Shown here one piece after another: positions 3,590 to 60,823 of a DNA stretch of 64,000 nt. Below the pieces are notes generated by a model. The model saw only the letters and a program-made list of their open reading frames with translations. It was not told the DNA's origin and made no database searches. The position numbers and the translations under genes were made by a program. The stretch's first letter is position 1, and each line of letters opens with the position of its first letter. The stretch comes from Deltaproteobacteria bacterium RIFCSPHIGHO2_02_FULL_40_28 (GTDB taxonomy: Bacteria; UBA10199; 2-12-FULL-40-28), in the NCBI GenBank assembly GCA_001798135.1, contig MGRJ01000020.1:31513-95512 (forward strand), given 5' to 3'.

Positions 3590-6286
3590 TTATAGTGCAA
3601 TGAGAGGAGCAAATCCCATTGAGGCATCTAACCCCACTCCTGCAATCATAATACGTCCCATGGCATCAAAAGCTAGTCCGCCACCTAGGGCCGGGGCTCC
3701 ACTCCATCCATTATTTGTTGCAGCAGCAATGCCTAAACCTACTCCCAATTGGTTGGGAACCACTTCATAAAATACTCCTCCTCTAGCAGAAGCATAGGCA
3801 TAAAGAGGGAGAGCTGCTGTAACGGGGTTCATAAGGCCTGCAAGCATATCAGAGGGTTGTTTGCCTACTCTCACTCCAGTTTCCAATTGGCTTTTAAAAT
3901 AAAGTTTTCCATTGGGGACTAAATTTTTTCGATGAGTGGCCGATATATTTACACCCGCATAAACCCCACCACTAAAAGAAATCCCAGGGCCTGCTGTTAT
4001 TTTTACAATGGTGTTGGTGTTGGGATTGTACATAATGCCTACATAGGGTTGATTCCATAATTCACGAGCCGATATAATACCTTGTAAATTATATCCTGCT
4101 AAAACACTCCAATCTGATGTGGGGCTTCCAATGGGATGAGTAAATTCAAAACCCAAATTTGCTGCTTGATAGGAATTATTTGCAAAACCCAAATTAACTG
4201 CCGAATTCAAGGTAAGTGAATCTCCAGCCTTATTGAGGTAGGGCATAGTATAACCCACTCCTGCATTCAAAGCAGGGGCTAAAGGAATTCCACTCACACC
4301 TGCACTTGTCAGTAAATTGTGCCCATTCATGAAGCGAGTGGTAGCACCTCCATAAGGAGAGGCACCTGTGGCACCACCATCTATGCCAAATTCCGGAGAT
4401 ATGAGGATACCATCCCTGGCTAATTTAACTTTAATGATGACATCTCCAGGGCGTTTTTTATCGGGAACAATATCCCAAACAATCTGTACTGGAAAATTTC
4501 CTCCAGGTTTACTTTCAGCTTTGCGGTCAATACGATTATGGTCGCTCCAATCTGGAAGCCCAGAGCGCTCTAATTGATCAAGTTGGTAGTCGATAATGGT
4601 AGAGTAACCTGTTGTTCTGTTGCCAATAGCTAAAATGGTATTAGCAACATCTGTATGTTTGTAATACCTTCCTTCAAAATCCAATCTTTTGCGGAGCATT
4701 TTTTCTCCACCCTGGGTATAAAACCAATCTTGTAATTGGGCATAAGCTGCTGGGTTGTCTTCTTTTCCATAAAATTCAAAATCAATTTTTGAAATTTTTG
4801 CAAAATGAAGATTGGTTAATCCACTTGGAGTAGGACGGCCAATAACGAGTTTTTGATTATCATAAGAGAGATCAACGGCTCTAGCATCCATAGCTTCATC
4901 TGTTTCAGGATCTATTTCTACCCCTGATTTTAAAAGATAACCTTCTTCAAGTTGGTAATATTGGTCTAACTTGGCAAGACCCCGATTGATGGATTTATTT
5001 GTATACTGAGGTTGTTTGCGCCCAGGTTTATGGTTTTTAAACCAATGTTCCAATCGATGAGGATTAAGTTGTATATCTGAACGCAGTTCAATTTTTTTGG
5101 GCATGGGAATCAAAATATAATTGAGATGAAGAGTAGATCCATCGGCCCAAGGTTTTCCACCAGGTTGAACATAGTATGAATGTCCATCCAGTTGTCCTTT
5201 ATTAAAGTAGGCAACAAGATCTTGTTCGAGTTCTTTTATGTTTCTTTCGTTTAAAGGGTAACGAATTTTTATTTCCTTAGATGCTGGATTAAACGAAATA
5301 TTTTTAACGGGGTGTCCATCCTTATCTGCAATGGTTGCATCAAGTGTAACAGAGAGATATTGGGGTTTGCAAAGAACTGGAATTACAAGTTCGTTGTGGT
5401 CGTTAATTTCCGGGGTTCCTAAACCTGCAAAATGCTCAAACTTTTTATTTTTCTTAAAATAACTTTGTAATTTTGATATTCCTTTTTCAATGTTCTTTTG
5501 AGAATAAGGGTAATCAAAAAAACTAAGAATTTTTTTTGTTAATTGATCTCGAATTTCTTGATTGGCATAGGGCAGGCCTTCATCATCTGTAATCAAGGGA
5601 ACAATTCCTTCCACAGGGGGGCTTATTTTATAAACAACGGTTACTTTTCCTTCTTCATCAAACTTAATATCAATGGGTAGAACATTGACGGTATTTTTAA
5701 AAAGAGATTGGGCTATGTTTTTAAAAATACCTTCGAGTTGAGCAAACTCTTCAGCGGAAATCACACCATCTTTTCCAACAATCTTTTCTGTTTTTTTGCG
5801 GATGGTTTTTTCTAAATGTTCAAGACGTTGTGATGTTTCTTTTGAAGGACGCCACTCATTTTTTAAGTGAGGTCCTTCAACAGAACTAAAAGAATATCCC
5901 CATTCAAACTTGGTTCCTCCATAAGAAAAATTGGAAGAATCTTGTTCATTTTTCCAAAGTAGTTTGGCTTGAGTTGTTTTTTTAAGTCCTTTTTCAGGGC
6001 TAGAATGGATAAGGGTTAATTCATGAGGAAGTTGTTTAAGATCTATTGTTGGATCAAGCCAGGCAATGTAGCGATAATTTTGGTTATGAATGGTTTGCTC
6101 AAAAATAATTTCATCAAAGAAGGGTTTATCAAATTGAGTGAAAAAATCTTTGGGCTTTATACTGGCATCAACTATTTCAAAGTGATCAAGAGGAATAAAC
6201 TCCGATCCATTTTGAATGGCCGATTGAACAGGAATATCTTCAGAGGTGTTATCACCACGAACAGAATTGAGAACAAAGTGAACCAT
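3590..6286 (-). CDS. Large hypothetical protein (898 aa) with Gly/Ala-rich C-terminal domain
   Basis: Long uninterrupted ORF with no obvious N-terminal signal peptide (MVHFVLNSVRGDNTSED). The C-terminal ~300 aa are strongly G/A/S/N-rich with alternating hydrophobic residues. No catalytic motif recognised. Confidence 0.6.
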   Translation of the reverse strand: MVHFVLNSVRGDNTSEDIPVQSAIQNGSEFIPLDHFEIVDASIKPKDFFTQFDKPFFDEIIFEQTIHNQNYRYIAWLDPTIDLKQLPHELTLIHSSPEKGLKKTTQAKLLWKNEQDSSNFSYGGTKFEWGYSFSSVEGPHLKNEWRPSKETSQRLEHLEKTIRKKTEKIVGKDGVISAEEFAQLEGIFKNIAQSLFKNTVNVLPIDIKFDEEGKVTVVYKISPPVEGIVPLITDDEGLPYANQEIRDQLTKKILSFFDYPYSQKNIEKGISKLQSYFKKNKKFEHFAGLGTPEINDHNELVIPVLCKPQYLSVTLDATIADKDGHPVKNISFNPASKEIKIRYPLNERNIKELEQDLVAYFNKGQLDGHSYYVQPGGKPWADGSTLHLNYILIPMPKKIELRSDIQLNPHRLEHWFKNHKPGRKQPQYTNKSINRGLAKLDQYYQLEEGYLLKSGVEIDPETDEAMDARAVDLSYDNQKLVIGRPTPSGLTNLHFAKISKIDFEFYGKEDNPAAYAQLQDWFYTQGGEKMLRKRLDFEGRYYKHTDVANTILAIGNRTTGYSTIIDYQLDQLERSGLPDWSDHNRIDRKAESKPGGNFPVQIVWDIVPDKKRPGDVIIKVKLARDGILISPEFGIDGGATGASPYGGATTRFMNGHNLLTSAGVSGIPLAPALNAGVGYTMPYLNKAGDSLTLNSAVNLGFANNSYQAANLGFEFTHPIGSPTSDWSVLAGYNLQGIISARELWNQPYVGIMYNPNTNTIVKITAGPGISFSGGVYAGVNISATHRKNLVPNGKLYFKSQLETGVRVGKQPSDMLAGLMNPVTAALPLYAYASARGGVFYEVVPNQLGVGLGIAAATNNGWSGAPALGGGLAFDAMGRIMIAGVGLDASMGFAPLIAL

Positions 6287-6449: not shown

Positions 6450-6455
6450 GTCTTG

Positions 6456-7574
6456 ATGTTTCGTAAAAGACGCCAGGCCATATTAAAAGATCTCACAAAA
6501 AAAATGGTGTTTTTAACAGGTCCCAGGCAGGTGGGAAAAACCTGGCTTGCCTTGGATATTTCCAAGGACTTTAAAAAACCAACCTATCTTAGTTTTGATA
6601 ATCCAGACCATAGACAAGTGCTTAAAGGAAGAGAATGGCTGCCAGATACCGATCTTCTCGTTCTGGATGAAATTCATAAAATGCGTGGATGGAAAAATTA
6701 CCTGAAAGGAGTTTATGACACGAAACCAGAGAGTTTGAGTATCTTAGTTACAGGGAGTGCTCGCCTGGAAACTTTTCGTCAGGCAGGAGATTCTCTGGCT
6801 GGAAGATTTTTTGTTCATCATCTCATGCCTTTTTGTTTAAACGAACTCCCCAATTCTACGTTGGAGGATCAACAAAAATTGATTGAATGTGGAGGATTTC
6901 CAGAGCCATTTTTAGCTCCCAATCAAGAAGAGGCCAGTCGCTGGCAGTCTTTGTATTTTGATAGTTTAATGCGAGAAGAAATTTTTGAATTCCAACGAAT
7001 TTTCGAGTTAAAAGCGATAAGGCTTATTCTAGAGCGTTTACAAAGAAATGTTGGGAGCCCTGTTTCCTATCAATCTCTGGCAGAAGATGTGCAAATATCA
7101 CCACAAACGGTTAAACGGTATATTCAGATCTTAGAGGATCTTTATATTATTTTTCGTGTTATTCCTTATTCTCAAAATATTGCCAGATCTTTACTCAAAG
7201 AACCCAAAATTTATTTTTACAATACTGGTTTTGTAGTGGGAGATATTGGTGCCCATCTTGAAAATTTTGTTGCTGTTAGTCTTTTAACTCACCTGTTTGA
7301 AAAAAGTGATTTACTGGGTGACAAAACTCAATTGGCCAATTTGCGAACAAAGGAAAAAAAGGAAGTTGATTTTTGTTTGGTTGTAGGAAATAAAATCAAA
7401 GAGTTAATCGAATGCAAACTAACCGATGATCAGCTAGCCCCTTCTCTCCGATATTTTTGCAACAAATACCATTTGAAAGGAACTCAACTTGTTAAGACCC
7501 CCCGCATTGAAAAACAGGTAGAATCCATCCAAATAAGGGCTAGTTTTCATTATTTGAAAGGCCTTGGATCATAA
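6456..7574 (+). CDS. AAA+ ATPase, AAA_14/DUF4143-type
   Basis: Walker A GPRQVGKT, Walker B-like LLVLDEIH, and a C-terminal DUF4143-like region. The N-terminal ILKDL..KMVF extension is shared with the paralogs at 43469 and 44620. Confidence 0.8.
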   Translation: MFRKRRQAILKDLTKKMVFLTGPRQVGKTWLALDISKDFKKPTYLSFDNPDHRQVLKGREWLPDTDLLVLDEIHKMRGWKNYLKGVYDTKPESLSILVTGSARLETFRQAGDSLAGRFFVHHLMPFCLNELPNSTLEDQQKLIECGGFPEPFLAPNQEEASRWQSLYFDSLMREEIFEFQRIFELKAIRLILERLQRNVGSPVSYQSLAEDVQISPQTVKRYIQILEDLYIIFRVIPYSQNIARSLLKEPKIYFYNTGFVVGDIGAHLENFVAVSLLTHLFEKSDLLGDKTQLANLRTKEKKEVDFCLVVGNKIKELIECKLTDDQLAPSLRYFCNKYHLKGTQLVKTPRIEKQVESIQIRASFHYLKGLGS

Positions 7575-9456: not shown

Positions 9457-10093
9457 TAAGTACTTGGCTGTGGAGGGTCCTATTGGGGTTGGAAAAACCT
9501 CGCTTACCCGTATGCTTGCCGAGGATTTAGGAGCCAGGCTCATTCTTGAAGAGCCAGCCAATAATCCCTTTCTTTCTACTTTTTATGAGGATCCAGACAG
9601 GTTTGCTTTTCAGACCCAGCTTTTTTTCCTTCTCTCACGATATCGTCAGCAGGTTGAATTAAAACAACAAGATCTTTTTAATCAAATAACGGTGTGTGAT
9701 TATGTTTTTGCAAAAGATCAAATTTTTGCTCACATGAATTTAACCCCCGAAGAAATAAGTCTTTATGAAGAAGTCTATCAACTTTTAGATGCCAGATTAC
9801 CAAAACCTGATTTGGTTATTTTTCTTCAAGCCTCTCCCGATGTTTTGATGAACCGGGTACGAAAGAGAAATGAAGTATATGAAAAATCGCTTCGTTATGA
9901 GTATGTAGAACAACTTTCTCAGGCGTATAGCAACTTTTTTTTCAAGTACCAAGAAACCCCTCTTCTTGTTGTAAATGCTTCTGGTATCGATTTTGTGAAC
10001 AATAAAAAAGACTATGACACGCTCAAGAAAGAGTTGTATCATATGATCAAGACACGCAAAGATCGGCATTATATCACCATTGATAGCCGGTAG
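9446..10093 (+). CDS. Deoxynucleoside kinase (dAK/dGK family)
   Basis: N-terminal P-loop EGPIGVGKTSL and a length and layout typical of deoxyadenosine/deoxyguanosine kinases. Confidence 0.8.
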   Translation: MEKLKYLAVEGPIGVGKTSLTRMLAEDLGARLILEEPANNPFLSTFYEDPDRFAFQTQLFFLLSRYRQQVELKQQDLFNQITVCDYVFAKDQIFAHMNLTPEEISLYEEVYQLLDARLPKPDLVIFLQASPDVLMNRVRKRNEVYEKSLRYEYVEQLSQAYSNFFFKYQETPLLVVNASGIDFVNNKKDYDTLKKELYHMIKTRKDRHYITIDSR

Positions 10094-10106
10094 AAAGGGA
10101 CCCACC

Positions 10107-11024
10107 ATGTCTTATCAAATCCACAAAATGAATGAGAAAATTACAGTACCAAAGCTTCAACGTATGGCCAAAGCTGGTGAAAAAATTACCATGATAACGG
10201 CCTACGATTATACCATGGCTAGTCTTATCGATGAGGCTGGCATTGATATGGTTTTAGTGGGGGATTCCCTGGGCATGGTAATTCAAGGGCATTCTAATAC
10301 TCTTCCCGTTTCTATTGATGACATGGTGTACCATACACGTTGTGTGGCCAAGGGGATAGAAAGGGCTCATTTGATGGCTGATATGCCTTTTCTTTCGTAT
10401 CAAATTAGCCATGAAGAAGCTGTTTCCAATGCAGGTAAATTAATTAAGGCAGGAGCCGAATCGGTTAAAATTGAAGGGGGAGAAGAGATGGCCGATTTGG
10501 TGTGGTATTTAAACAAAGTGGGTATCCCTGTGATGGCTCATGTGGGTTTAAAACCGCAATCGGTACACATCATGGGAGGCTACAAGGTTCAAGGCAAAAC
10601 AACCAAGGATGCCGATGTGATTATTAACGATGCCCAGGTATTAGAGGAAGCGGGGGCTTTTTCTCTTTTGTTAGAAGGGTTGCCTATGGAGGTAGCTCAA
10701 AAAATAACTGAAACAGTTTCTATTCCCACCATTGGAATTGGTTCTGGCCCACGTTGTCATGGGCAGGTAATGGTAATTTACGATCTCTTGGGTGCCAATC
10801 CTCATTTTAAACCCCGCTTTGTGAAAAATTACGCCAATTTTCATGAAGTGTGTATTAAGGCTTTGGGTCACTACATTAGTGATGTTCGTGAGGGAATGTT
10901 TCCTACTGAGGAACATAGTGTGTATCGCGAATTACAAATGTTGGAAGGTGGTGGCAAACAAGAATTGACAAAAGAAAAGGGTAGTAAAAAAAGTAAGCGC
11001 GTTAAACATGAAAGTGAAAAATAA
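10107..11024 (+). CDS. panB: 3-methyl-2-oxobutanoate hydroxymethyltransferase
   Basis: Blocks ITMITAYDY, LVGDSLGMV, GIPVMAHVGLKPQ; ATG 10107 follows the dNK stop. Carries an unusual Lys-rich C-terminal tail (KEKGSKKSKRVKHESEK). Confidence 0.9.
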   Translation: MSYQIHKMNEKITVPKLQRMAKAGEKITMITAYDYTMASLIDEAGIDMVLVGDSLGMVIQGHSNTLPVSIDDMVYHTRCVAKGIERAHLMADMPFLSYQISHEEAVSNAGKLIKAGAESVKIEGGEEMADLVWYLNKVGIPVMAHVGLKPQSVHIMGGYKVQGKTTKDADVIINDAQVLEEAGAFSLLLEGLPMEVAQKITETVSIPTIGIGSGPRCHGQVMVIYDLLGANPHFKPRFVKNYANFHEVCIKALGHYISDVREGMFPTEEHSVYRELQMLEGGGKQELTKEKGSKKSKRVKHESEK

Positions 11025-11033
11025 GTTTTCCTA

Positions 11034-11873
11034 GTGAAAGTTATCACCAACATACCGCAAATGCAGAAAATAAGTTTTGCCTTAAAAAAGAAGGGCAAAA
11101 AAATCGGTGTTGTACCCACCATGGGTTATCTGCATGAAGGGCATCTTTCGCTTATTCGCATAGCTCAAAAATATTCAGATATTGTTATCCTCACTCTTTT
11201 TATTAATCCCACACAATTTGCAGCCCATGAGGATTTAAACCGCTATCCACAAGACATTCCGGGAGATTTAAAAAAATGTAAGAAAGCTGGGGTTGATTAT
11301 GTTTTTTCCCCCAAAATTTCAAAAATGTATCCTAAAAATTTTGAAACTTATGTAGAAACTACACAGATATCACTTCCTCTTTGTGGAGGCTCACGTCCCG
11401 GTCATTTTCGTGGGGTAACAACCATTGTTTCAAAATTATTTTTAATTACCCAGCCTACTGTGGCTGTGCTTGGGAAAAAAGATTTTCAACAATTAGCTGT
11501 TATTAAGCGCATGGGTGCTGATCTTAATTTTCCTATTCGTATTATAGGAGCCCCTATTGTGAGAGACAAAGATGGTTTGGCATTAAGTTCCAGAAATGTT
11601 TATTTAACTTTAGAAGAAAGAAAAAATGCAGTTGGGATTTCTAGTGCTCTTTTTTGGATTCGAAATCAAATTAAATCGGGTGAGACGCGCATTGCTATTT
11701 TAATGAGTCATCTTAAAAATAAACTTTTTTCTTGTGGGTTAAGACTCGATTATGCTGAATGTCTTCATTCAGAAAACTTAACTCCATTAACTCACTATCA
11801 AAAAGGTAAAACCCTTTTTGCCGTCGCTTGTTTTGTAGGAAAGACGCGGTTGATTGATAATATTGTAGTGTAA
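11034..11873 (+). CDS. panC: Pantoate--beta-alanine ligase
   Basis: VPTMGYLHEGHLSL signature with N-terminal spacing matching PanC; GTG start at 11034 (alternative ATG at 11061). Confidence 0.9.
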   Translation: MKVITNIPQMQKISFALKKKGKKIGVVPTMGYLHEGHLSLIRIAQKYSDIVILTLFINPTQFAAHEDLNRYPQDIPGDLKKCKKAGVDYVFSPKISKMYPKNFETYVETTQISLPLCGGSRPGHFRGVTTIVSKLFLITQPTVAVLGKKDFQQLAVIKRMGADLNFPIRIIGAPIVRDKDGLALSSRNVYLTLEERKNAVGISSALFWIRNQIKSGETRIAILMSHLKNKLFSCGLRLDYAECLHSENLTPLTHYQKGKTLFAVACFVGKTRLIDNIVV

Positions 11874-11886
11874 GGAAGATATCTCT

Positions 11887-11992
11887 GGTCAGGGGGGAGT
11901 ATTTCTTTCGTCCCTGCGGAACTCCTCGCCCTTCGACTTTGCTCAGGGCTCGTCAGACAGTCCTCGCTCCTCAAGAAACACTCCCCCCTGCC
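11887..11992 (-). repeat. Family-A GC-rich structured repeat (conserved core, complementary flanks), copy 1
   Basis: Reverse complement carries the core CGAGGACTGTCTGACGAGCC...GGCGAGGAGTTCCGCAGG flanked by inverted arms (GGTCAGGGGGGAG / CTCCCCCCTGCC); intergenic after panC. Confidence 0.85.
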
Positions 11993-12061
11993 TTCCACGT
12001 ACCTTCATATTGAGTTATATTCTGGATTTTTTTATTTTATTTGTGTTAAATAATTTTCCTC

Positions 12062-13351
12062 ATGATTGAAATCATCTCTGCAAAATATCTTGTTTCAATG
12101 GCTGCCCCGCCTCTTTTTGATGGAGCCATGGTTATTGAAAATGGTGAGATAATCGATACAGGTCCAGAATCCCAGATGCTTGATCGTTATCCCGATGCTC
12201 TCCATGAAGACTATGCCAATCAAGCTATTTTACCTGGGTTTATTAATGCTCATGTTCATTTGGATATGGGGCTTCATACTAATTATCCCCAGGATCCCGT
12301 TCGTTCTATGGTAGCCCAACCTCATTTTGTAGAATGGCTTTTGGGTTGTATCGAATATAAAAAAAATACTTCTTCAGAACGGTTGCGTGAAGCAGTGGAG
12401 CAGGGGATTGCAGCTTGCATTGAATCGGGTATTACTTGTGTGGGGGATATGGGAAATTATGGAGGCATTGTTCAAAGCTTAGAGCAAGTAGGTTTGCGGG
12501 GAGTTGTTTTTCCTGAAGTTTTAAGTTACGACAGTAGCGTAGCAAGAGATTTATTTGAAACAGCTTTAGCCATTGTAGAAAAATATCTGGAGTATGATTC
12601 TGAGCGCATTAGTGTGGGGCTTGGGCCTTATTCGCCCTATACTTTGTCTCGCAATATTTTACGTATTTTATCGCAGTATTCACGTACCTCTCGTATTCCT
12701 TTGATGATGCAGGTGGCTGAAAGTTTTTCAGAGATGGAATTTTTTTATGATTCTACGGGTGATATTGCCACTTTGCTTTTCCCTAATATTGGCTGGGGTG
12801 AAAATCTTCCACCGCAGTTTCGCAAAACTCCCGTTCAACACCTGGATGAAATTGGATTTTTAGAGGCCAGTCCCATTTTGGTGGGTTGTGTCCATGTTAC
12901 TCCCCAGGATTTGGATCGTATTGAGAGAAGCAAGAGTAAAATTATTTGGTGTCCTCGTTCTAATTCTTATTTGCGTCAGGGGGTAACACCCATTAAATTG
13001 ATTCGACAAAAAGGCATTCCTTTGGCTTTAGCAACTGATGGTCTTTCTTCTACCAATACTCTTTCGCTTTGGGATGAAATGCGTTTTGCCCATCAACAAT
13101 CTAAGGAGCATGGTTTTGGTCTTACTGCTCAAGACTTATTGGAGATGGTAACCATTCGTGCAGCGGAAATTTTGATGTTGGGGAATGAAATAGGAAGTTT
13201 AGTGCCTGGCAAAAAAGCCGACTATATCGTGGTCGATTTAGTTGGACATGAAAAAGAGGTTCCTCTTTATGATCATCTTATTCAAAAAACCAGAGGCTAT
13301 CATGTTCGTAAAGTTGTAGTCGAAGGCCAGTCTTTAAAACAAGTAAATTAA
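12062..13351 (+). CDS. Amidohydrolase-superfamily protein (chlorohydrolase/deaminase-like)
   Basis: Metal-binding HxH in GFINAHVHLDMG; 429 aa, typical of nucleoside/aminohydrolase-type amidohydrolases. Substrate not assignable. Confidence 0.75.
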   Translation: MIEIISAKYLVSMAAPPLFDGAMVIENGEIIDTGPESQMLDRYPDALHEDYANQAILPGFINAHVHLDMGLHTNYPQDPVRSMVAQPHFVEWLLGCIEYKKNTSSERLREAVEQGIAACIESGITCVGDMGNYGGIVQSLEQVGLRGVVFPEVLSYDSSVARDLFETALAIVEKYLEYDSERISVGLGPYSPYTLSRNILRILSQYSRTSRIPLMMQVAESFSEMEFFYDSTGDIATLLFPNIGWGENLPPQFRKTPVQHLDEIGFLEASPILVGCVHVTPQDLDRIERSKSKIIWCPRSNSYLRQGVTPIKLIRQKGIPLALATDGLSSTNTLSLWDEMRFAHQQSKEHGFGLTAQDLLEMVTIRAAEILMLGNEIGSLVPGKKADYIVVDLVGHEKEVPLYDHLIQKTRGYHVRKVVVEGQSLKQVN

Positions 13352-13489: not shown

Positions 13490-14956
13490 ATGAAGTATTT
13501 ACGTTTATTTGTCGTTTTTTCTAGTTTTGTTTTTCTCATCAACTGTAGTGGGAGTTCCAGTAGCGATAGCGATAGTGATAGTGGAACGGTTAGTTCCGAT
13601 GCCTTAAGTTCCTTAACAAACATCCCTGATTTAAACGTGGATAGTATGGATGCGAATAGTGCTACCACAAACTCCAGTCTTTCCTCCCTTGTCAAGGCAG
13701 CAAGTACAAGGCCGAGTGATAGATCTTATTCAAGAACGGCTTGCGAGGTGAGATCTGCTGTTGAAGAAATTAAAAGCCAAGTCAAAGGTTTTCGGTCTGA
13801 AATGTGTATTGACAAAGCCTTTGAATCTGCTGGTTTGATTGCAGTGGGTAATGGGGCTTTTAATTATTACGAGGTTATTATTGATGAATCCATGTTTGCT
13901 GATGAACTCGAAGATGAACTCGAAGAAGGTGGTTTTGACCCGGATGATTTGGGAGAAGAAACAGCCTATGTGCGCGTTGGTTTAGTGAGTGACCAGTTGA
14001 GTGTGATGTTGTGCGAAATTGATGATGATGATGGTCAAGGCCAAGGCACTTATACCCAAACTTTGGAAATGATCTACACCGTTTCTGGCGGCCGATTTAG
14101 TGGACAATTAACTGATATTTTGGGTTCTGACAGTTATCAAATCACCATTACAGCTGATGATGTTGCGGCATCCTTTGATGATGGTGAAGCCGTGGAAATT
14201 GCCATGGGATTTAATGGTCAATGGGGCGCTGGTACCATTAACTTTAACGCAGACAAAGCCAGCTCGGTTATAACCAATGAAATGGATTTTTCTTGGCGTT
14301 CTGGAGCTTCAGGATCTGAATGGGGTACCTGGCGTTCAACAGGTTATGCCCTTTTTGATTCTCAGGAAGGGTGTGGCGTACACGAATCTACGGGAACCTA
14401 CAAGGGAGATGTGGCAGGCAATATGTTCTCACTAGAAGACTTAACCACTCTAGGCCTTGCCGCTTCTGATAATGTTTGCTGGAAACAAGTGGATAATTAT
14501 GAAACTGCTGTTTGGCCAACTGATTTTGTGGAAGCAGCTGATTCAAATGGCATGTGTACTTTTACAGATGGAAGTACCGATAACACTGAATGTTTCTTTT
14601 ATGACTTAACAGATGCCGGAGCCCTTGATTACATGGTGCTTGGAGATACCTCTGCTTCTCCCTATGTGGATGCTGTTACTGCCAAATCCAGCTTTTTGGA
14701 CTTTAACGAACCTACGTTTACTTTCCAAGAAACCTGGGATTGTACGGCTCCCAATGGGTTTACTCGAGTTGTGGTAGCAGAGCATCCTGATCTCCTTGTC
14801 TCATTGTCTGCATGTATTGCCTTGGAAGTTGAAGCAGAAGGCTCACGCAGTACTGAGTCTTGTGAAGATAAAGAACAGCAAGACCATGCAGAAGGTGAAA
14901 CTGGTCAAGAATTTAGTGGAGAAGGAGAAGGCCAGGGTCAAGAGCAAGGTCCATAA
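13490..14956 (+). CDS. Acidic low-complexity lipoprotein (hypothetical)
   Basis: Signal peptide with lipobox LINC followed by SGSSSSDSDSDSG; strongly acidic (D/E-rich), Cys-containing; C-terminal GEGQGQEQGP. Confidence 0.6.
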   Translation: MKYLRLFVVFSSFVFLINCSGSSSSDSDSDSGTVSSDALSSLTNIPDLNVDSMDANSATTNSSLSSLVKAASTRPSDRSYSRTACEVRSAVEEIKSQVKGFRSEMCIDKAFESAGLIAVGNGAFNYYEVIIDESMFADELEDELEEGGFDPDDLGEETAYVRVGLVSDQLSVMLCEIDDDDGQGQGTYTQTLEMIYTVSGGRFSGQLTDILGSDSYQITITADDVAASFDDGEAVEIAMGFNGQWGAGTINFNADKASSVITNEMDFSWRSGASGSEWGTWRSTGYALFDSQEGCGVHESTGTYKGDVAGNMFSLEDLTTLGLAASDNVCWKQVDNYETAVWPTDFVEAADSNGMCTFTDGSTDNTECFFYDLTDAGALDYMVLGDTSASPYVDAVTAKSSFLDFNEPTFTFQETWDCTAPNGFTRVVVAEHPDLLVSLSACIALEVEAEGSRSTESCEDKEQQDHAEGETGQEFSGEGEGQGQEQGP

Positions 14957-20267: not shown

Positions 20268-20443
20268 GTCATTCCCGCGAAGGCGGGGGTCCATCTTGGT
20301 TCCCCTCCTTTGTAAGGAGGGGTTAGGGGAGGTAGAGAGTTTAGTAAGACTCTACCCCCTCCAACTCCCCCTTACAAAGGGGGAGAGTACAGATGGATCC
20401 CTGCCGGAGTTTACCCCTGCGAAGGCAGGGGCAGGGATGACAC
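20268..20443. repeat. Composite palindromic element: family-B terminal inverted repeats enclosing family-C hairpins
   Basis: Left end GTCATTCCCGCGAAGGCGGGGGTCCATCT, right end AGATGGATCCCTGCC...GGGATGAC. Interior has perfect hairpins CCCCTCC-TTTGTAA-GGAGGGG and CTCCCCC-TTACAAA-GGGGGAG. About 175 bp, GC-rich in an AT-rich context. Confidence 0.85.
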
Positions 20444-20523: not shown

Positions 20524-20925
20524 TTAGTTGGCAGGTGGGTCATTAGGTTTAATCTTAATACTTTTGTAACCATATCCACCTACACCACCAGCAGCGATGT
20601 ATAGAATAGCTTTTACGAACTCTTTAACAATTTCATCTTTATTCAGATAAAGAGCATATGCAAAAAAACCCAAAATAAGTGTTAAGCTTATTCCTGCAAA
20701 CCAAAATATTTTTTTAATTATATCTCTTTGATGAGTTCTATTTAACTCTAGATCCCCTGCTTGGACTTGCATGCTTTGCACTGCATACTTATAACTTCTT
20801 TCATCAGAAGCTGTCCTAGCTTCGATTTCTTTTTCTCGAACCTTGAGTTCTTCTTTCTGAAATTCAAGAAATTTTAATGGAAGTTGGTTTGGGTCAGCAG
20901 GGAGATTTATATTGTTTTCAGACAT
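20524..20925 (-). CDS. Hypothetical single-pass membrane protein
   Basis: 133 aa: charged, coiled-coil-like N-terminal part, one TM helix (FWFAGISLTLILGFFAYALYL), Gly-rich C-terminal tail (GGVGGYGYK); no homolog recognised. Confidence 0.4.
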   Translation of the reverse strand: MSENNINLPADPNQLPLKFLEFQKEELKVREKEIEARTASDERSYKYAVQSMQVQAGDLELNRTHQRDIIKKIFWFAGISLTLILGFFAYALYLNKDEIVKEFVKAILYIAAGGVGGYGYKSIKIKPNDPPAN

Positions 20926-20926
20926 T

Positions 20927-21130
20927 TTAGCTGCCTAGCACAACCTTATAAACTGGCAACTTATATTTGATTTTGATTTTACCAAAATCTTTTTGACCTA
21001 ACTTAGGGGGAAGTACCTGGACAGATTCAATATTAAATTTTTCTCTATCTCTTCGTTTAAGATATTCAGAGGGCTCAACCACTTCTTCTTTAATGGGAAT
21101 TGTTTTTAAAGTTGATTCACTCACTTCCAT
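20927..21130 (-). CDS. Hypothetical small protein
   Basis: 67-aa ORF whose stop abuts the start of the 133-aa membrane protein (1-nt gap), suggesting co-transcription. Confidence 0.35.
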   Translation of the reverse strand: MEVSESTLKTIPIKEEVVEPSEYLKRRDREKFNIESVQVLPPKLGQKDFGKIKIKYKLPVYKVVLGS

Positions 21131-21290: not shown

Positions 21291-21370
21291 CTGCGATAGG
21301 AACCCATCTTAATTCCCCTCCTTTGTCCCACAGGGACTTCGGAGGGGTAAGGGGAGGTAGAGAGTTTTGT
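21291..21370. repeat. Family-C partial element (left half of the 20268 composite)
   Basis: ACCCATCTTAATTCCCCTCCTTTGT...GGAGGGGTAAGGGGAGGTAGAGAGTTT closely matches the interior of the composite element. Confidence 0.75.
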
Positions 21371-21475
21371 ATACACCAGCTAAAAGTGAAAATACTATAC
21401 TACTAATTAAAACTTTCCCTTTTCACAAAATCTCTTTTCGTTTAAAATACTTAAGTTCAATCAAGAGGAGGAAAA

Positions 21476-21955
21476 ATGGCTAAGATTGTTATGAGTGAAT
21501 TTGAAGTAGAGCTTCCCCCCAATTGGAAGGATCAGGGTATGATTACGCTTACAATGCCTTCTACCGACCCTAAGGTGAGGCCCAATATTATTGTTACAGT
21601 TGAACGTTTGCAAAACCCAACTGATCTCAATTCTTATTTTGATAAAATTAAAAAGTCTGTTCAAGCCAGGGGAATTAATAGCTTTAAGGTATTAAGCGAG
21701 AAAGATGTGGCCTTAAGTGGTATCCCTGCCAAAATGATGATTTGTACATGGGATTTGGCAGCTATGAAAACCATGATGGGCCCTAAAGCTGCTAATTTGG
21801 AGCATATTCAGGATGGTCAAATGGTGCAGCAAATTCAGGTTTCTTGCTTAAGAAACACAGTTGCTATTAATCTTACTGCAAGCTTTCCTGCCGAGCAGTT
21901 TGAATTGTATTCCAGGCCCTTTCAGAACTTTATCAAAGGTTTTAAGTTCCTGTAA
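21476..21955 (+). CDS. Hypothetical protein
   Basis: 159-aa ORF with an RBS-like GAGGAGG upstream; no signal peptide or motif recognised. Confidence 0.45.
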   Translation: MAKIVMSEFEVELPPNWKDQGMITLTMPSTDPKVRPNIIVTVERLQNPTDLNSYFDKIKKSVQARGINSFKVLSEKDVALSGIPAKMMICTWDLAAMKTMMGPKAANLEHIQDGQMVQQIQVSCLRNTVAINLTASFPAEQFELYSRPFQNFIKGFKFL

Positions 21956-21977: not shown

Positions 21978-22928
21978 ATGAAGCATTTACGGGCACAAAT
22001 TGTCGCCACAGGTTCTTATGTACCTTCCCGTGTGGTTCCTAATTCTGAGCTAGAAGTTTCACTTCACACAACCAACGAATGGATTCGGTCTAAAATTGGA
22101 ATTAAAGAACGACGCTATGCAGAACCAGACATTGGTCCGGCAGATTTAGCCCTTCATGCTGCAATACAGGCTTTAAAAACAGCTAATCGAGAGGCGCGAG
22201 ATATCGATTGCATCCTTTTTGCTACAACAACACCCGAATATGAAGCTCCTGGTTCTGGGGTTTTACTTCAGGATAAACTCGGTTGTCGTAGAATTCCTGC
22301 CTTTGATGTGCATAATACCTCACCTGGTTTTTTATTTGCGCTCGAATTGGGTGATTCACTTATTCGTTCTGGAAAGTATGAATGCATTCTTGTTGCCGCA
22401 GGCGAGGTTTTATCCCCGCGTCTGGATATGACAGAAGCGGGACGGCTGATGAGTGTGATTTTTGGAGATGGGGCTGGATGTGTTCTTTTAGAAGCAACCG
22501 AAGGGCCACATGGCATTTTAGCGACTAAACTGCATTCGGATGGAGTGCACTACAACAAACTATGGTGTGAAGGCCCCCATACTTATCCCACCATGGATGG
22601 CCCCTTTGTTTTCAAACATGCTGTTACTTCTATGAGCCTGGTGGCCAAAGAAATTCTCATTGAGCAAGGGATAGAATCCAATCAACTTACTCATATTATC
22701 CCACATCAGGCTAATCTTCGCATTATTGAAACGATTGCCGATCAGCTTAAAATTCCGATGGCAAAGGTTAAAACCACCATTCAAAAATATGGAAATACCT
22801 CGGCAGCCTCTATTCCCATTACTTTAGATGAAACAGTAAGAGCTGGTTTAGTGAAACCCAACGATCTTATTTTAACTATGAGTTTTGGATCTGGTTTTAG
22901 TTGGGGGGCAGGGCTTATTCGTTGGTAG
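21978..22928 (+). CDS. KAS III (FabH)-like enzyme with Ser in place of the catalytic Cys
   Basis: FabH-like thiolase fold with the His (IIPHQAN) and Asn (YGNTSAAS) positions conserved, but the nucleophile region reads AFDVHNTSPGFLFAL where FabH has a Cys-containing AFDV..ACxGF. Confidence 0.8.
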   Translation: MKHLRAQIVATGSYVPSRVVPNSELEVSLHTTNEWIRSKIGIKERRYAEPDIGPADLALHAAIQALKTANREARDIDCILFATTTPEYEAPGSGVLLQDKLGCRRIPAFDVHNTSPGFLFALELGDSLIRSGKYECILVAAGEVLSPRLDMTEAGRLMSVIFGDGAGCVLLEATEGPHGILATKLHSDGVHYNKLWCEGPHTYPTMDGPFVFKHAVTSMSLVAKEILIEQGIESNQLTHIIPHQANLRIIETIADQLKIPMAKVKTTIQKYGNTSAASIPITLDETVRAGLVKPNDLILTMSFGSGFSWGAGLIRW

Positions 22929-23223
22929 AGATTTCTTGGGTTATCAAAACAATTTCATCCGGATAAGAAAAACCTAAAATTTCACGAGCCAAGTGTTCAA
23001 TGGTTTTTGGATTATCCAAACTTTTTTGTTCTATCCTTAAAAAAAGATTTTCGTTTTGAAGAATTCTATTTTGTGTCATTAACGCTTCTTTTTGTTTTTT
23101 AAGATGCCACAACTGAATAAGCCCCGATTGCCCTCCAAGGCTTAGCCCTATAAAAATAACAAAAGTAAAAAAGGCCGCTAGATAGAAGAGAGAGTTGTAA
23201 TTGCCGGTTGCACTTATTTTCAT
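22915..23223 (-). CDS. ftsB: Septum-formation initiator family protein (FtsB/DivIC-like, putative)
   Basis: About 100 aa with an N-terminal TM helix followed by a coiled-coil stretch ([29 protein letters not shown]); lies downstream of ruvB in the same orientation. Confidence 0.5.
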
Positions 23224-42413: not shown

Positions 42414-43472
42414 ATGAAGCATCTTATTGGAGAGCACATTGTAGGTGGATTTGATGGCGTAACGATAACTGCGCAATTACATTTGCTTGTTCAAAAATAT
42501 CACTTGGGTGGTTTTATTTTTTTTCGTCGAAATATTGAAAATACAGATCAAGTTTTAGAACTCACTCAAAGTCTTCAAGAAAAATCAGAAAATATTTTAT
42601 GGATGGGGGTAGATCAAGAAGGAGGACGTGTTTTTCGTTTAGGGGAACCCTTCACGACAATTCCTACCATGGCCATTGTGGGCGAATATTATCGGCGCAC
42701 CAAAAATAAAAAAGTTCTTTTTCAATTAGGAAAACTTTTAGGAACAGAACTCAAAGCTGTGGGATTTAACTGGGACTACGCTCCCGTGGTGGATGTTCAT
42801 TCTAATCCTCAAAACCCAATCATTGGTGATCGCTCTTTTAGTCCCGATCCCCATGTGGTTACACAGTGTGCAGAAGCTGTAATCAAGGGGCTGCATAGTG
42901 TTGGAGTTGTTTCTTGCATCAAACATTTTCCAGGGCATGGAGAAACAGCGGTTGATTCGCATCTTAAACTTCCTGTGGTAAAATCTCCTGGAAGGCTTTT
43001 ATGGAAGCGTGATGTTTTCCCTTTTCGGGAGCTGATTAAAAAACATAGGGTGCCAACGCTGATGACAGCTCATGTAAAATACATGGAGTTTGATAAACAA
43101 AATTGTGCCACTCTTTCCAAACCCATTTTAACGCGTATTTTGCGTGGACGTTTGGGGTATAAAAATTTGATTGTTTCGGATGATCTTTTTATGAAGGCCA
43201 TTGCAGACAGGTATAGTTTAGCTGATGCTTGCGAGCAATTTTTTATGGCAGGGGGTGATATTGCTCTTATTTGCAAAGAGCCAGAACTACAAATTGAAGT
43301 CATCGAACAATTAGAAAAATCAGTTTCAAAAAGTAAGGCCTTCGAAAAAAAATTAACAGAATCTTATTCTCGTATTAAACGCATCAAAAAACACTATCTC
43401 AAAAACCAATCTCGTCCATCCCTTGAGGTTATTGGATGTGTTGCTCACAAAGAAATTGCAAATATTTTTTAG
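42414..43472 (+). CDS. nagZ: Beta-N-acetylhexosaminidase (GH3, NagZ-like)
   Basis: GH3 blocks MGVDQEGGRV, NWDYAPVVDV, KHFPGHG. Confidence 0.85.
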   Translation: MKHLIGEHIVGGFDGVTITAQLHLLVQKYHLGGFIFFRRNIENTDQVLELTQSLQEKSENILWMGVDQEGGRVFRLGEPFTTIPTMAIVGEYYRRTKNKKVLFQLGKLLGTELKAVGFNWDYAPVVDVHSNPQNPIIGDRSFSPDPHVVTQCAEAVIKGLHSVGVVSCIKHFPGHGETAVDSHLKLPVVKSPGRLLWKRDVFPFRELIKKHRVPTLMTAHVKYMEFDKQNCATLSKPILTRILRGRLGYKNLIVSDDLFMKAIADRYSLADACEQFFMAGGDIALICKEPELQIEVIEQLEKSVSKSKAFEKKLTESYSRIKRIKKHYLKNQSRPSLEVIGCVAHKEIANIF

Positions 43473-44578
43473 ATCAGTTGATTAAGAAACAAACCAGCTG
43501 GACAAATACGGATATTTTCTTTTGAAAGAAAATCTTTCTTACCCTGAAGTGAAATTTGCCAGGCTGGAACGGAGGGAAATTTTGTTTTAAGATATTTAAG
43601 TCCTTCTGAAGGAGCATCATCAGAGAGCTTGCATTCAACAAACAAGTAAGGTTTACGGTTTTCAGTTACAACAAAATCAACCTCTCGTTTATGCACATCA
43701 CGAAAATAACAAAGGGCCATTTCTCTGCCTTGCGTGTCATACAAATAATGGGTCCACTTCAAAAGATGGCAAGCTATCATATTTTCGAAACGAAGAGCAG
43801 AATTGTCTACAAGGGTCCAATCATAGTGGTAATGTTTTTGTTCTTTTTTAACAGCTCTGATTTTAGGAGCCCCAAAGGGTGCAAGCCTAAAAATAGCATA
43901 GAGTCGCTCAAGAACATTGAGCCAACGAGAAACTGTTTTATGATTTAATTGTAGATCTTCTCTTAAGCTATTGATGGAAAGAGGGCTTCCAACCAATTCA
44001 GGCAAACGAATCATAAGAAGTTCTAGTTGTCCTAAATTTTCGATGCCCTCAAGAGATCTCACTTCATCTTGAATCAAGCGATTGCGGTATTCAAGAGACC
44101 ATCGTTTGGATTCAATTTCATTTTTTTTAAGATAGGGTTCTGGGAATCCGCCCAATTGGAGAAGTTGTTGTAAATGAGAGGAAGAAGACATCTTCAGTTC
44201 GGCAAAAGAAAGAGGGTGAAGACGCAAATAATGATAGCGGCCTTGGAGCGAATCGCCACCAAAACGATAATAATCAAGCCTAGCACTTCCTGTAATTAAA
44301 AATTGGCAATTCTTTTTTCTTTCATCGTAGAGTCCTTTGAGATAATTCCGCCACTGACGATACTTGTGGATTTCATCAAAAATAAGGAGCCCTTTTTCAG
44401 GGAGTTCGTATTTAAGAATACGTTCCCGATGTTCTGGGATGTCCCAGTTCAAATAAACATGGGAAGAATAAGCCAAATCCAAGGCGAGGGTTGTTTTCCC
44501 AACCTGCCGTGGTCCACCTACGAAAACCATTTTGGAATTCAAGTCTTTAAGGATTTGTTTTTGAAGATACCGCTCCAT
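43469..44578 (-). CDS. AAA+ ATPase, AAA_14/DUF4143-type
   Basis: Walker A GPRQVGKTTLA, Walker B LLIFDEIH, DUF4143-like C-terminus; in tandem with the paralog at 44620. Confidence 0.8.
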   Translation of the reverse strand: MERYLQKQILKDLNSKMVFVGGPRQVGKTTLALDLAYSSHVYLNWDIPEHRERILKYELPEKGLLIFDEIHKYRQWRNYLKGLYDERKKNCQFLITGSARLDYYRFGGDSLQGRYHYLRLHPLSFAELKMSSSSHLQQLLQLGGFPEPYLKKNEIESKRWSLEYRNRLIQDEVRSLEGIENLGQLELLMIRLPELVGSPLSINSLREDLQLNHKTVSRWLNVLERLYAIFRLAPFGAPKIRAVKKEQKHYHYDWTLVDNSALRFENMIACHLLKWTHYLYDTQGREMALCYFRDVHKREVDFVVTENRKPYLFVECKLSDDAPSEGLKYLKTKFPSVPAWQISLQGKKDFLSKENIRICPAGLFLNQLI

Positions 44579-58010: not shown

Positions 58011-58076
58011 CCTTGTAATTATGGCATACAATTCCATAAATGCAAGGTTAGAGTAAAAGACAAGGCATATTTTTCC

Positions 58077-58105
58077 TTGACTAACCACGCCCCCTTTAAT
58101 ATTTA
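58077..58105 (+). promoter_or_regulatory. Candidate promoter for sdhCAB
   Basis: TTGACT at 58077-58082 followed 15-17 nt later by an A/T-rich -10-like hexamer (TAATATTTA region); about 40 nt upstream of the sdhC ATG. Confidence 0.3.
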
Positions 58106-58143
58106 ACGTCAACATCTTTAACGTCTTTATTTTTCTATTCGAC

Positions 58144-60809: not shown

Positions 60810-60823
60810 GGGAAACGAAAAGT

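What the first reader, a model, noticed from the sequence alone, without database searches (positions are those of the whole stretch)
21978..22928. FabH-like enzyme with Ser replacing the nucleophilic Cys
The protein keeps the KAS III fold and the His/Asn positions but has Ser where the condensing Cys should be (AFDVHNTSPGFLFAL). Established: KAS III-like enzymes with altered nucleophiles often act as acyltransferases or specialised starter-unit enzymes rather than canonical FabH. Inference: this gene, together with the unknown 159-aa ORF just upstream, may belong to a specialised lipid or secondary-metabolite acylation pathway.
Basis: partly seen in the sequence, partly recalled or inferred. 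Interest (0 to 1): 0.45.

Follow-up and report, generated by a model that had tools for sequence, protein, structure and literature searches.

The report
FabH-like enzyme with serine nucleophile
This gene encodes an otherwise normal-looking fatty-acid-initiating enzyme (FabH) whose reactive cysteine is permanently replaced by serine; the change is conserved across an uncultivated bacterial lineage, usually beside a small chaperone-like gene, and its chemistry has never been tested.

Summary
Window 21978-22928 (+) encodes a 316-aa KAS III that scores above the curated fabH cut-off. Its model superposes on E. coli FabH (TM 0.95). Ser115 (codon TCA) sits where Cys112 should be; His243 and Asn273 are kept.

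It is not an error. The identical protein occurs in four MAGs. All 72 closest database relatives (47-64% identity) carry N-[TS]-S-P-G-F. They form one clade (98/100 bootstrap with the motif removed) and use all four TCN codons. In a profile search of 1.84 billion representatives, 4 of the 152 aligned sequences had Ser (the window protein plus three listed representatives).

The clade also replaces Phe87', which caps the acyl pocket, with Ala/Ser/Val/Thr, and often shortens the beta8-alpha9 specificity loop.

The upstream 159-aa gene is a cytosolic DUF1795 protein with an EagT6/SciW-like fold. The pair recurs in eight distinct contexts, but each gene also occurs alone.

Nothing nearby suggests a fab, PKS, NRPS or T6SS cluster; the neighbours are housekeeping genes.

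Best reading (inferred, 0.4): an active KAS III using an acyl-O-Ser intermediate with a larger-than-acetyl primer. Rivals: malonyl-ACP decarboxylase, or plain acyltransferase.

Whether a Cys-type fabH coexists in the genome could not be tested. New variant of a known kind.

The parts
21420..21451 (+). Promoter-like hexamer pairs upstream of the two-gene unit (weak evidence)
   Evidence: The consensus scan found 9 of 12 matches, no more than in shuffled sequence. They are the only such sites in the 345-nt intergenic region directly before the DcrB-like gene, which has a strong AAGAGGAGG Shine-Dalgarno sequence at 21464-21472.
21476..21955 (+). 159-aa cytosolic DUF1795 (DcrB/Eag-like) protein, the usual upstream partner of the Ser-type KAS III
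   Evidence: Pfam PF08786, E=8e-11. There is no signal peptide or lipobox (N-terminus MAKIVMSEFEVE). The AF2 model has pLDDT 86. Its best PDB folds are EagT6 (TM 0.73/0.81) and SciW, then DcrB and PsbP. The family is tight: 93 clusters at 51-98% identity. It lies directly upstream of the Ser-type KAS III in the window, L001, L009/L013, L010, L011, L016, L049 and L098. It occurs alone in L093-L095.
21978..22928 (+). 316-aa KAS III (FabH-family) protein with a Ser-His-Asn active site
   Evidence: It starts 22 nt after the DcrB-like stop, with no Shine-Dalgarno sequence of its own. Its 3' end overlaps the convergent ftsB-like gene (22915-23223, minus strand) by 14 nt.
22320..22322 (+). Codon TCA for Ser115, at the position of the FabH nucleophile Cys112
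   Evidence: Ser is present in 73 of 73 clade members. Codons TCT, TCC, TCA and TCG are all seen across 13 loci.
22245..22247 (+). Codon for Ala90, equivalent to E. coli Phe87', the residue from the other subunit that caps the acyl pocket
   Evidence: the Ser clade has Ala 55, Ser 9, Val 6 and Thr 2 at this position, whereas the nearest Cys-type relatives have Phe in 45 of 47. PMC12625853 states that Phe87 limits EcFabH to acetyl-CoA, and that Thr at this site opens the long-chain channel in MtFabH.
22704..22706 (+). Codon for His243 (= E. coli His244), which is retained
   Evidence: invariant in the clade, within the motif PHQANLRI, which also keeps Arg248 (= the ACP-docking Arg249).
22794..22796 (+). 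Codon for Asn273 (= E. coli Asn274), which is retained
   Evidence: invariant in the clade, within the motif GNTSAASI.
22566..22589 (+). Shortened beta8-alpha9 loop (residues about 197-204); 16 residues are missing relative to the 332-aa relatives
   Evidence: Loops are shortened, with different boundaries, in 13 of 73 Ser-clade members and in none of the 47 Cys-type relatives. pLDDT is below 50 at residues 200-202. This loop is a primer-specificity determinant in FabH and BioZ (PMC12625853).

Best explanation
The gene encodes a folded, selectively maintained variant of FabH (KAS III). The nucleophilic Cys has been replaced by Ser in the common ancestor of one uncultivated lineage and has been kept ever since. 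The rest of the reaction centre is intact: the His/Asn pair for malonyl decarboxylation and enolate stabilisation, the oxyanion loop, the pantetheine tunnel residues and the main ACP-docking Arg.

The most likely mechanism is inferred, not shown. Ser115, activated by His243, takes an acyl group from an acyl-CoA (or acyl-ACP) to form an acyl-O-ester enzyme. This is the nucleophile chemistry described for the Ser-His-Asp enzyme DpsC. The primer is probably larger than acetyl, because the pocket cap Phe87' is replaced by a small residue and the beta8-alpha9 specificity loop is remodelled or deleted. His243 and Asn273 then decarboxylate malonyl-ACP, and the carbanion attacks the ester to give a beta-ketoacyl-ACP.

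The gene is co-transcribed with a cytosolic DUF1795 (Eag-like) protein in most members of the clade. I suggest this protein is a binding partner for the enzyme or for a hydrophobic substrate or product. The module sits among housekeeping genes, so it looks like a core lipid-metabolism function of the lineage rather than part of a natural-product cluster.
For: Shown:
- FabH fold and family membership by score.
- Ser at the nucleophile position in 73 of 73 clade members, with all four TCN codons.
- One monophyletic clade, 98/100 bootstrap with the motif columns removed.
- The clade keeps W32, F157, L189, M207, G209, F213, H244, A246, N247, N274, F304, G305 and G307 in all or nearly all members (72-73 of 73), and R249 in 70 of 73.
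- Clade-specific changes cluster at the active site and pocket: A111T, A/S113P, F87' to a small residue, L191C, A303S and R36K.
- The identical sequence is found in four MAGs.
- The DUF1795 partner is adjacent in eight contexts with different flanks.

From the literature:
- Phe87', Leu142, Leu191, Gly306 and the beta8-alpha9 loop set primer size in FabH and BioZ, and MtFabH has Thr at the Phe87 site (PMC12625853).
- BioZ C115S became glutarylated in vivo, so a Ser in this position can be acylated (same paper).
- DpsC-type KAS III enzymes work with a Ser nucleophile (PMC12308425).
- From my own knowledge: Bao et al. 1999 reported DpsC acylation on Ser118 and condensation with malonyl-ACP.
Against: No biochemical data exist for any member of the clade. 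In ordinary KAS III enzymes Cys-to-Ser is used as an inactivating mutation: BioZ C115S did not react with glutaryl-CoA in the crystal. From my own knowledge, E. coli FabH C112S loses condensation but keeps malonyl-ACP decarboxylation (Davies et al. 2000). The known Ser-using enzymes have Asp, not Asn, as the third residue. In 50 of 73 clade members the ACP-docking Lys214 is Glu, and Arg36 is Lys, so the carrier-protein partner may differ. The window protein itself lacks Arg151 (Ala154). The DUF1795 gene and the KAS III gene each also occur without the other (L002, L012, L015; L093-L095), so the partnership is not obligatory in gene order. I had no model coordinates, so the pocket geometry is inferred from alignment only.
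Confidence: 0.4

Rival explanations
1. The protein is a KAS III-derived malonyl-ACP decarboxylase. Without the thiol it no longer forms an acyl-enzyme, but His243 and Asn273 still decarboxylate malonyl-ACP. The acetyl-ACP product then primes FabF/FabB or feeds other acetyl-ACP users. This would be a FabH-scaffold counterpart of KS-Q loading domains and of the MadA/MadB enzymes.
For: The complete decarboxylation apparatus and ACP-docking Arg249 are conserved, and only the nucleophile is lost. From my own knowledge, E. coli FabH C112S retains decarboxylase activity. PMC8666670 notes that Mad decarboxylases are confined to Proteobacteria and that another gene family may supply acetyl-ACP elsewhere. 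BioZ C115S was unreactive toward its acyl-CoA in the crystal.
Against: A pure decarboxylase has no need for an invariant hydroxyl. Gln, Ala or Gly would be expected at least occasionally, yet Ser is found in 73 of 73 members. There would be no reason to keep the CoA-adenine Trp32 and the acyl-pocket residues F157, L189 and M207, or to enlarge the pocket systematically (F87' to Ala/Ser/Val/Thr).
Confidence: 0.2
2. The protein is a non-condensing acyltransferase. Ser115 and His243 work like the Ser-His pair of FabD or DpsC-type loaders. They move an acyl group from CoA to a carrier protein, or to a hydroxyl or amine acceptor, with no C-C bond formation.
For: Ser nucleophiles are typical of acyltransferases. 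The DpsC/OxaC-type KAS III enzymes with Ser are described as loading acyltransferases (PMC12308425). The pocket is enlarged. Lys214 is Glu in most clade members, which hints at a different protein partner. A conserved hydrophobic-binding partner protein is present.
Against: Known KAS III-like acyltransferases have lost or changed the Asn (or the His/Asn pair), and they sit in PKS/NRPS clusters. Here Asn273 and the GNTSAAS loop are invariant, and there is no cluster, no dedicated ACP and no acceptor-making gene nearby. The protein scores as true FabH.
Confidence: 0.2
3. The protein is a catalytically dead pseudo-enzyme that serves as a structural or regulatory subunit, as PqsB does for PqsC. 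It might act in complex with the DUF1795 protein or with another KAS.
For: The canonical nucleophile is lost. The beta8-alpha9 loop is repeatedly shortened. There is a conserved small partner.
Against: Pseudo-enzymes usually let the remaining catalytic residues drift. Here the N-T-S-P-G-F motif, His, Asn and the oxyanion loop are invariant or nearly so across sequences that are only 47-64% identical.
Confidence: 0.07
4. The Ser is an artefact: a sequencing or assembly error, or a decaying pseudogene of an ordinary fabH.
For: None beyond the single unusual residue and the short loop.
Against: TCA is two substitutions away from TGY. The identical protein appears in four MAGs and on 13 contigs. 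Seventy-two homologues share the Ser and the surrounding motif. The reading frame is intact and the model is confident.
Confidence: 0.01

Closest known systems
FabH / KAS III proper (E. coli FabH, Aquifex FabH; TIGR00747, PRK09352)
   Same: About 40% identity over the full length, above the curated family cut-offs. Same fold (TM 0.95). Same His, Asn, oxyanion loop, pantetheine tunnel and Arg249.
   Different: Ser replaces the nucleophilic Cys and Pro follows it. Phe87' is replaced by a small residue. Arg36 is Lys, and Lys214 is Glu in most clade members. The gene is not in a plsX-fabHDG-acpP-fabF cluster. It is paired with a DUF1795 gene.
DpsC-like KAS III (DpsC, AknE2, CosE, HedS, OxaC): Ser-His-Asp priming/loading enzymes of type II PKS and NRPS pathways
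   Same: A KAS III fold that uses Ser at the nucleophile position (PMC12308425). This is the precedent showing that such an enzyme can be active.
   Different: The third residue is Asp in those enzymes and an invariant Asn here. They sit in biosynthetic gene clusters, whereas here the neighbours are housekeeping genes. No DpsC chain appears among the 60 best PDB sequence matches, all of which are FabH-like proteins. The Ser has therefore arisen independently within FabH proper.
M. tuberculosis FabH (long-chain acyl-CoA primer)
   Same: A small residue at the Phe87' position, which in MtFabH opens a long acyl channel (PMC12625853).
   Different: MtFabH keeps Cys. Identity to the window protein is only about 34%.
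Engineered C-to-S or C-to-Q KAS III mutants (BioZ C115S 9w96, FabH C112Q 9ka5) and natural KS-Q decarboxylating domains
   Same: Same position substituted with His/Asn retained. They show what a thiol-less KAS III can still do: bind substrate, decarboxylate, and be acylated slowly.
   Different: Those are laboratory mutants, or Gln variants in PKS loading modules. Here the Ser is natural, ancient and accompanied by co-adapted neighbouring substitutions.
Eag chaperones (EagT6, SciW; DUF1795) and E. coli/Salmonella DcrB, for the upstream gene
   Same: Same Pfam family and fold. The best structural matches are EagT6 and SciW (TM about 0.7-0.8). It is cytosolic and about 150-160 aa, like Eag proteins.
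   Different: There is no T6SS, VgrG, PAAR or Rhs gene, or TMD-bearing effector, nearby. The downstream protein is a soluble KAS III with no N-terminal TM helices. Unlike DcrB, it has no signal peptide or lipobox. Sequence identity to any solved member is only about 13-15%.

Membership tests
FabH / KAS III (TIGR00747, PRK09352) | Thiolase-fold KAS III architecture (PF08545 + PF08541) scoring above the curated family cut-offs | tested here: met
   Pfam E-values are 1e-22 and 1e-32. TIGR00747 scores 317 against a cut-off of 292, and PRK09352 scores 336 against 249. The model superposes on E. coli FabH with TM 0.95.
FabH / KAS III (TIGR00747, PRK09352) | Cys-His-Asn catalytic triad (E. coli C112, H244, N274) | tested here: not met
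   His243 and Asn273 are present, but Ser115 replaces the Cys. This holds in the window protein and in all 72 closest relatives.
FabH / KAS III (TIGR00747, PRK09352) | Condenses a short acyl-CoA with malonyl-ACP and complements a fabH mutant | not testable with these tools
   This requires an enzyme assay or a complementation experiment.
FabH / KAS III (TIGR00747, PRK09352) | It is the genome's initiating KAS (either the single copy, or alongside a Cys-type paralogue) | not tested
   No other KAS III, AcpP or FabF was found in the 64-kb window or in 10 kb beyond each end. The rest of the MAG could not be reached, because the genome scan and contig look-ups were exhausted.
DpsC-like Ser-His-Asp KAS III acyltransferases | Ser at the nucleophile position | tested here: met
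   Ser115.
DpsC-like Ser-His-Asp KAS III acyltransferases | Asp as the third triad residue (DpsC S118-H297-D302, PMC12308425) | tested here: not met
   Asn273 is invariant in the clade.
DpsC-like Ser-His-Asp KAS III acyltransferases | Encoded in a type II PKS or NRPS gene cluster with a dedicated carrier protein | tested here: not met
   No PKS, NRPS or ACP genes occur in the window, in its extensions, or in eleven related loci.
Mad malonyl-ACP decarboxylases (PF09500 hot-dog) | YiiD_C hot-dog fold | tested here: not met
   The fold is thiolase/KAS III. Only the possible activity would be shared, not the family.
Eag chaperones (DUF1795) - upstream gene | DUF1795 / PF08786 fold, cytosolic, about 150 aa | tested here: met
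   PF08786 scores 42.5 bits against a cut-off of 27.2. The best folds are EagT6 and SciW. The sequence shows no signal peptide.
Eag chaperones (DUF1795) - upstream gene | Encoded next to a prePAAR/TMD-bearing T6SS effector or VgrG | tested here: not met
   The downstream gene is a soluble KAS III. No VgrG, PAAR or Rhs gene occurs in any of the eight contexts.
DcrB (enterobacterial periplasmic lipoprotein) - upstream gene | Signal peptide with a lipobox Cys | tested here: not met
   The N-terminus is MAKIVMSEFEVELPPNW, with no hydrophobic leader and no Cys.

The most novel reading that the evidence does not exclude
The Ser-His-Asn enzyme is not an accessory paralogue. It is the lineage's main, or only, route into fatty-acid synthesis. 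Either it initiates synthesis through an oxygen-ester acyl-enzyme, which would be the first housekeeping FabH without a thiol. Or it is a KAS III-derived malonyl-ACP decarboxylase, the 'different gene family' that Whaley et al. (PMC8666670) suggested must supply acetyl-ACP outside Proteobacteria. In both cases it would work with an Eag-like DUF1795 partner recruited to lipid metabolism. Evidence that leaves this open: the protein is close to true FabH; it appears vertically inherited within a housekeeping neighbourhood (ispH/gyrB - DUF1795 - KAS III - ruvX/yceG); and no Cys-type fabH was seen in any sequence from this lineage that I could reach.
Probability: 0.2. Interest if true: 0.75.

Novelty: new variant of a known kind. 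Interest (0 to 1): 0.5.

Why it matters
FabH is a textbook Cys-His-Asn enzyme and an antibiotic target, and replacing its Cys with Ser is the standard way to inactivate it. A natural, ancient and strictly conserved Ser-His-Asn clade inside FabH proper therefore points to one of two things. Either an oxygen-ester acyl-enzyme can support Claisen condensation on this scaffold without the Asp found in DpsC. Or evolution has converted a FabH into something else, such as a decarboxylase or a transferase, while keeping a sequence that annotation pipelines still call 'ketoacyl-ACP synthase III'. The second case is a practical annotation trap. NCBI names relatives 'ketoacyl-ACP synthase III' (P0020, P0039), while this protein is labelled 'hypothetical'. 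The conserved pairing with a cytosolic Eag-like DUF1795 protein would also give that family a role outside type VI secretion. If the enzyme proves to be the lineage's only initiator, it would change how fatty-acid initiation is inferred from genomes.

Tried and rejected
1. Register error: rejected. Two independent sequence alignments agree, and the fold superposition is consistent with them.

2. Sequencing or assembly error: rejected.

3. A relocated nucleophile. Two cysteines are clade-specific: Cys103 (70/73) and Cys197 (68/73, at the tunnel residue Leu191). Neither is invariant, and the divergent Ser-type relative P0217 has Leu at both. This is unlikely as a general mechanism. Distances could not be measured because model coordinates are not exposed.

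4. T6SS adaptor idea. The partner is a DUF1795 protein, and a KAS-like 'PRK06147' adaptor has been described (PMC7714669). Rejected: PRK06147 pairs with DUF2169, not DUF1795. Our protein does not hit PRK06147. No VgrG, PAAR or Rhs gene is present in any context.

5. Secondary-metabolite cluster: rejected after annotating the window and its extensions.

6. Finding a canonical fabH in the same genome. The genome-contig scan returned only five distant Cys-type FabH loci from other taxa and not the source genome. Walking 10 kb beyond both window ends found none. A search for lineage-specific proteins next to Cys-type FabH loci found nothing usable. The question remains open.

7. Literature. No paper was found that combines 'Ser-His-Asn' with FabH or ketosynthase, or C112S with FabH and decarboxylation. 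The KAS III review PMC6786007 is not held.

8. The third homologue search was not spent. No query could be designed that would place the lineage's own FabH among the 120 listed hits.
Full report
**What is there.**
The finding's coordinates hold a real gene. It runs from ATG 21978 to the stop ending at 22928 on the + strand and encodes 316 aa. It carries both KAS III Pfam domains. It passes NCBI's curated fabH models: TIGR00747 scores 317 bits against a cut-off of 292, and PRK09352 scores 336 against 249. Its best PDB relatives are Aquifex FabH (E = 3e-71) and E. coli FabH (E about 1e-67), at about 40% identity. An AlphaFold2 model built on 50 relatives has mean pLDDT 94. It superposes on E. 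coli FabH (6x7r) with TM 0.95 and rmsd 1.5 A.

**The observation.**
In the phmmer alignments to E. coli FabH the stretch FDVAAACAGF pairs with FDVHNTSPGF. Ser115 therefore occupies the place of Cys112, His243 that of His244, and Asn273 that of Asn274. MAFFT with 120 homologues gives the same register. The codon is TCA, two substitutions away from TGY. The identical protein is recorded under four NCBI MAG accessions and on 13 contigs. The source is 'Deltaproteobacteria bacterium RIFCSPLOWO2_12_FULL_40_28' and sibling MAGs.

**It is a clade, not a mutation.**
- All 72 closest relatives in a 5.8-billion-protein collection (47-64% identity) have Ser in the motif N-[TS]-S-P-G-F. Below about 47% identity every hit reverts to Cys (N-Q-C-S-G-F).
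- With the motif columns removed, a neighbour-joining tree still recovers the Ser sequences as one group in 98 of 100 bootstraps.
- Thirteen loci use TCT, TCC, TCA or TCG for this Ser. This is what one ancient TGY-to-TCY change followed by purifying selection would produce.
- A profile search of 1.84 billion 50%-identity representatives found 36,272 KAS III-like proteins. I aligned the best 150 together with E. coli FabH and the window protein. Of these 152 sequences, 148 have Cys and 4 have Ser.
- The four Ser sequences are the window protein, the clade's representative P0069, P0217 (N-A-S-C-G-F, 48% identical, which shares other clade signatures) and P0238 (N-E-S-N-G-F).

**What else changed.**
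I compared the 73 Ser-type sequences with their 47 nearest Cys-type relatives.

Kept in the clade:
- the CoA-adenine Trp32;
- the tunnel and pocket residues F157, L189, M207, G209, F213, A246 and N247;
- the ACP-docking Arg249 (70 of 73);
- the F-G-x-G oxyanion loop;
- His and Asn.

Specifically different:
- A111T and A/S113P, which flank the Ser;
- A303S, next to the oxyanion loop;
- R36K and T37I;
- K214E (50 of 73; the window protein keeps Lys213);
- I100C and L191C;
- Phe87' replaced by Ala, Ser, Val or Thr (72 of 73, against Phe in 45 of 47 Cys-type relatives).

According to PMC12625853, Phe87' blocks the acyl channel of EcFabH and restricts it to acetyl-CoA. The same paper states that Thr at this site gives MtFabH its long-chain cavity. 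It also states that Leu142, Leu191, Gly306 and the beta8-alpha9 loop determine primer size. In the Ser clade that loop has been shortened independently in 13 of 73 members. The window protein is one of them, with 16 residues missing and pLDDT below 50 at residues 200-202. The acyl-binding side of the enzyme is therefore remodelled, while the malonyl-ACP side is preserved.

**Surroundings.**
The upstream 159-aa ORF (21476-21955) has a strong Shine-Dalgarno sequence and ends 22 nt before the KAS III start, which has none. It belongs to PF08786 (DcrB/DUF1795) and has no signal peptide. Its model (pLDDT 86) matches the T6SS chaperones EagT6 and SciW best, then DcrB and PsbP. Its family is small and tight: 93 clusters at 51-98% identity. 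It is more conserved than the enzyme.

The pair 'DUF1795, then Ser-KAS III' recurs with different flanking genes in the window, L001, L009/L013, L010, L011, L016, L049 and L098. These loci span the deepest split of the clade, at 47% identity. However, one subclade has the KAS III alone (L002/L003, L012, L015), and related genomes have the DUF1795 gene alone after ispH (L093-L095). The link is therefore strong but not absolute.

Flanking genes are housekeeping throughout: ispH, gyrB, ruvX, yceG, lolA and yajQ. In the window they are ftsB-like, ruvB, ruvA, ruvC and yebC. tblastn with E. coli AcpP, FabF and FabH found nothing else in the window. Pfam annotation found no fab, PKS, NRPS or T6SS genes in the window or in 10 kb beyond either end.

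**How it most likely works.**
Shown: the fold, the substitution, its conservation, the retained and altered residues, and the gene pairing. Everything about chemistry is inferred.

I favour an active enzyme that forms an acyl-O-Ser115 intermediate, with His243 as general base. The primer would be larger than acetyl, and the enzyme would then perform the usual His/Asn-assisted decarboxylative condensation with malonyl-ACP. My reasons are these:
- The hydroxyl is invariant, whereas a mere decarboxylase could tolerate Gln, Ala or Gly.
- The residues around it have co-changed.
- The acyl pocket has been enlarged rather than left to decay.
- The complete malonyl-ACP half-site is preserved.

Precedents exist. 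DpsC-type KAS III enzymes use Ser (PMC12308425). BioZ C115S became acylated in vivo, although it did not react in the crystal (PMC12625853).

The main rivals are:
- a malonyl-ACP decarboxylase, which is the activity that thiol-less KAS mutants retain (PMC8666670 notes that a non-Mad decarboxylase family may exist outside Proteobacteria);
- a non-condensing acyltransferase;
- a pseudo-enzyme, which is unlikely given the conservation.

**Comparison with known families.**
By score and fold the protein is a member of FabH proper, but it fails that family's defining Cys. It resembles DpsC-like enzymes only in the Ser. It has Asn rather than Asp and no biosynthetic cluster, and the 60 best PDB sequence matches are all FabH-like proteins with no DpsC chain among them. 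The Ser is thus an independent invention. The partner has an Eag-like fold but lacks any T6SS context.

I found no paper describing a Ser-His-Asn FabH. That literature search covers open-access text only.

**What remains open.**
I could not determine whether these genomes also carry an ordinary Cys-type fabH. If such a gene is present, this is an accessory, specialised KAS III. If it is absent, this is a thiol-less housekeeping initiator, which would be much more remarkable.

**Verdict.**
This is a genuine, conserved, uncharacterised Ser-His-Asn variant of FabH with a DUF1795 partner. It is a new variant of a known kind and of moderate interest (0.5).

Noticed in passing
window 20282-20405 and 21304-21371: A GC-rich imperfect palindrome (56-nt arms, 77% complementary) has a 91-94% identical partial direct copy about 1 kb downstream. 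The two copies bracket two small minus-strand ORFs of unknown function (20524-20925, 133 aa; 20927-21130, 67 aa; no Pfam hit). These ORFs lie between yajQ and the DUF1795 gene. The arrangement could be a small REP-like or mobile insertion.
   Followed up: partly
window 6453-7574, 43469-44578, 44620-45777, 55991-56821, 56844-58151; L097 4899-6059: There are five AAA_14/DUF4143 ATPase-type genes in one 64-kb window (one of them has DUF4143 only), and a sixth lies just outside. That is an unusual density for this family.
   Followed up: no
P0217 and P0238 (database proteins, no locus): Two further KAS III representatives have Ser at the nucleophile position. P0217 has N-A-S-C-G-F, with a Cys one residue later, Val at the Phe87' site, and 48% identity to the window protein. 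P0238 has N-E-S-N-G-F, with Phe87 kept and Arg249 replaced by Asn. P0217 may be a sister or an intermediate form of the Ser clade.
   Followed up: partly
window 22284-22286 (Cys103) and 22566-22568 (Cys197): Two cysteines are specific to the Ser clade: Cys103 (70/73; Ile or Leu in Cys-type relatives) and Cys197 (68/73). Cys197 sits at the position of the tunnel residue Leu191 of E. coli FabH. Their role is unexplained, and distances to Ser115 could not be measured.
   Followed up: partly
window 21978-22928 and homologues P0020, P0039: Annotation is inconsistent. NCBI calls this protein 'hypothetical protein' in the Rifle MAGs, but it-61% identical Ser-type relatives 'ketoacyl-ACP synthase III'. 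The curated fabH HMM cut-off does not detect the missing Cys.
   Followed up: yes
window 10080-13351 compared with L002 2940-5516 and L012 3943-6113: panC and an Amidohydro_1 gene (with panB beside them in the window) lie within about 10 kb of the Ser-type KAS III, both in the window and in the subclade that lacks the adjacent DUF1795 gene. This suggests long-range conserved synteny across the lineage.
   Followed up: no
window 58980-61564 and L096 11556-14148: Two separate succinate dehydrogenase/fumarate reductase flavoprotein plus Fe-S subunit pairs lie within about 8 kb of each other. They flank isocitrate dehydrogenase and malate dehydrogenase genes.
   Followed up: no
window 3590-6286 (-) and 13490-14956 (+): Two large ORFs, of 898 aa and 488 aa, have no Pfam match at E <= 1e-5. 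The second lies between the amidohydrolase gene and fadE.
   Followed up: no
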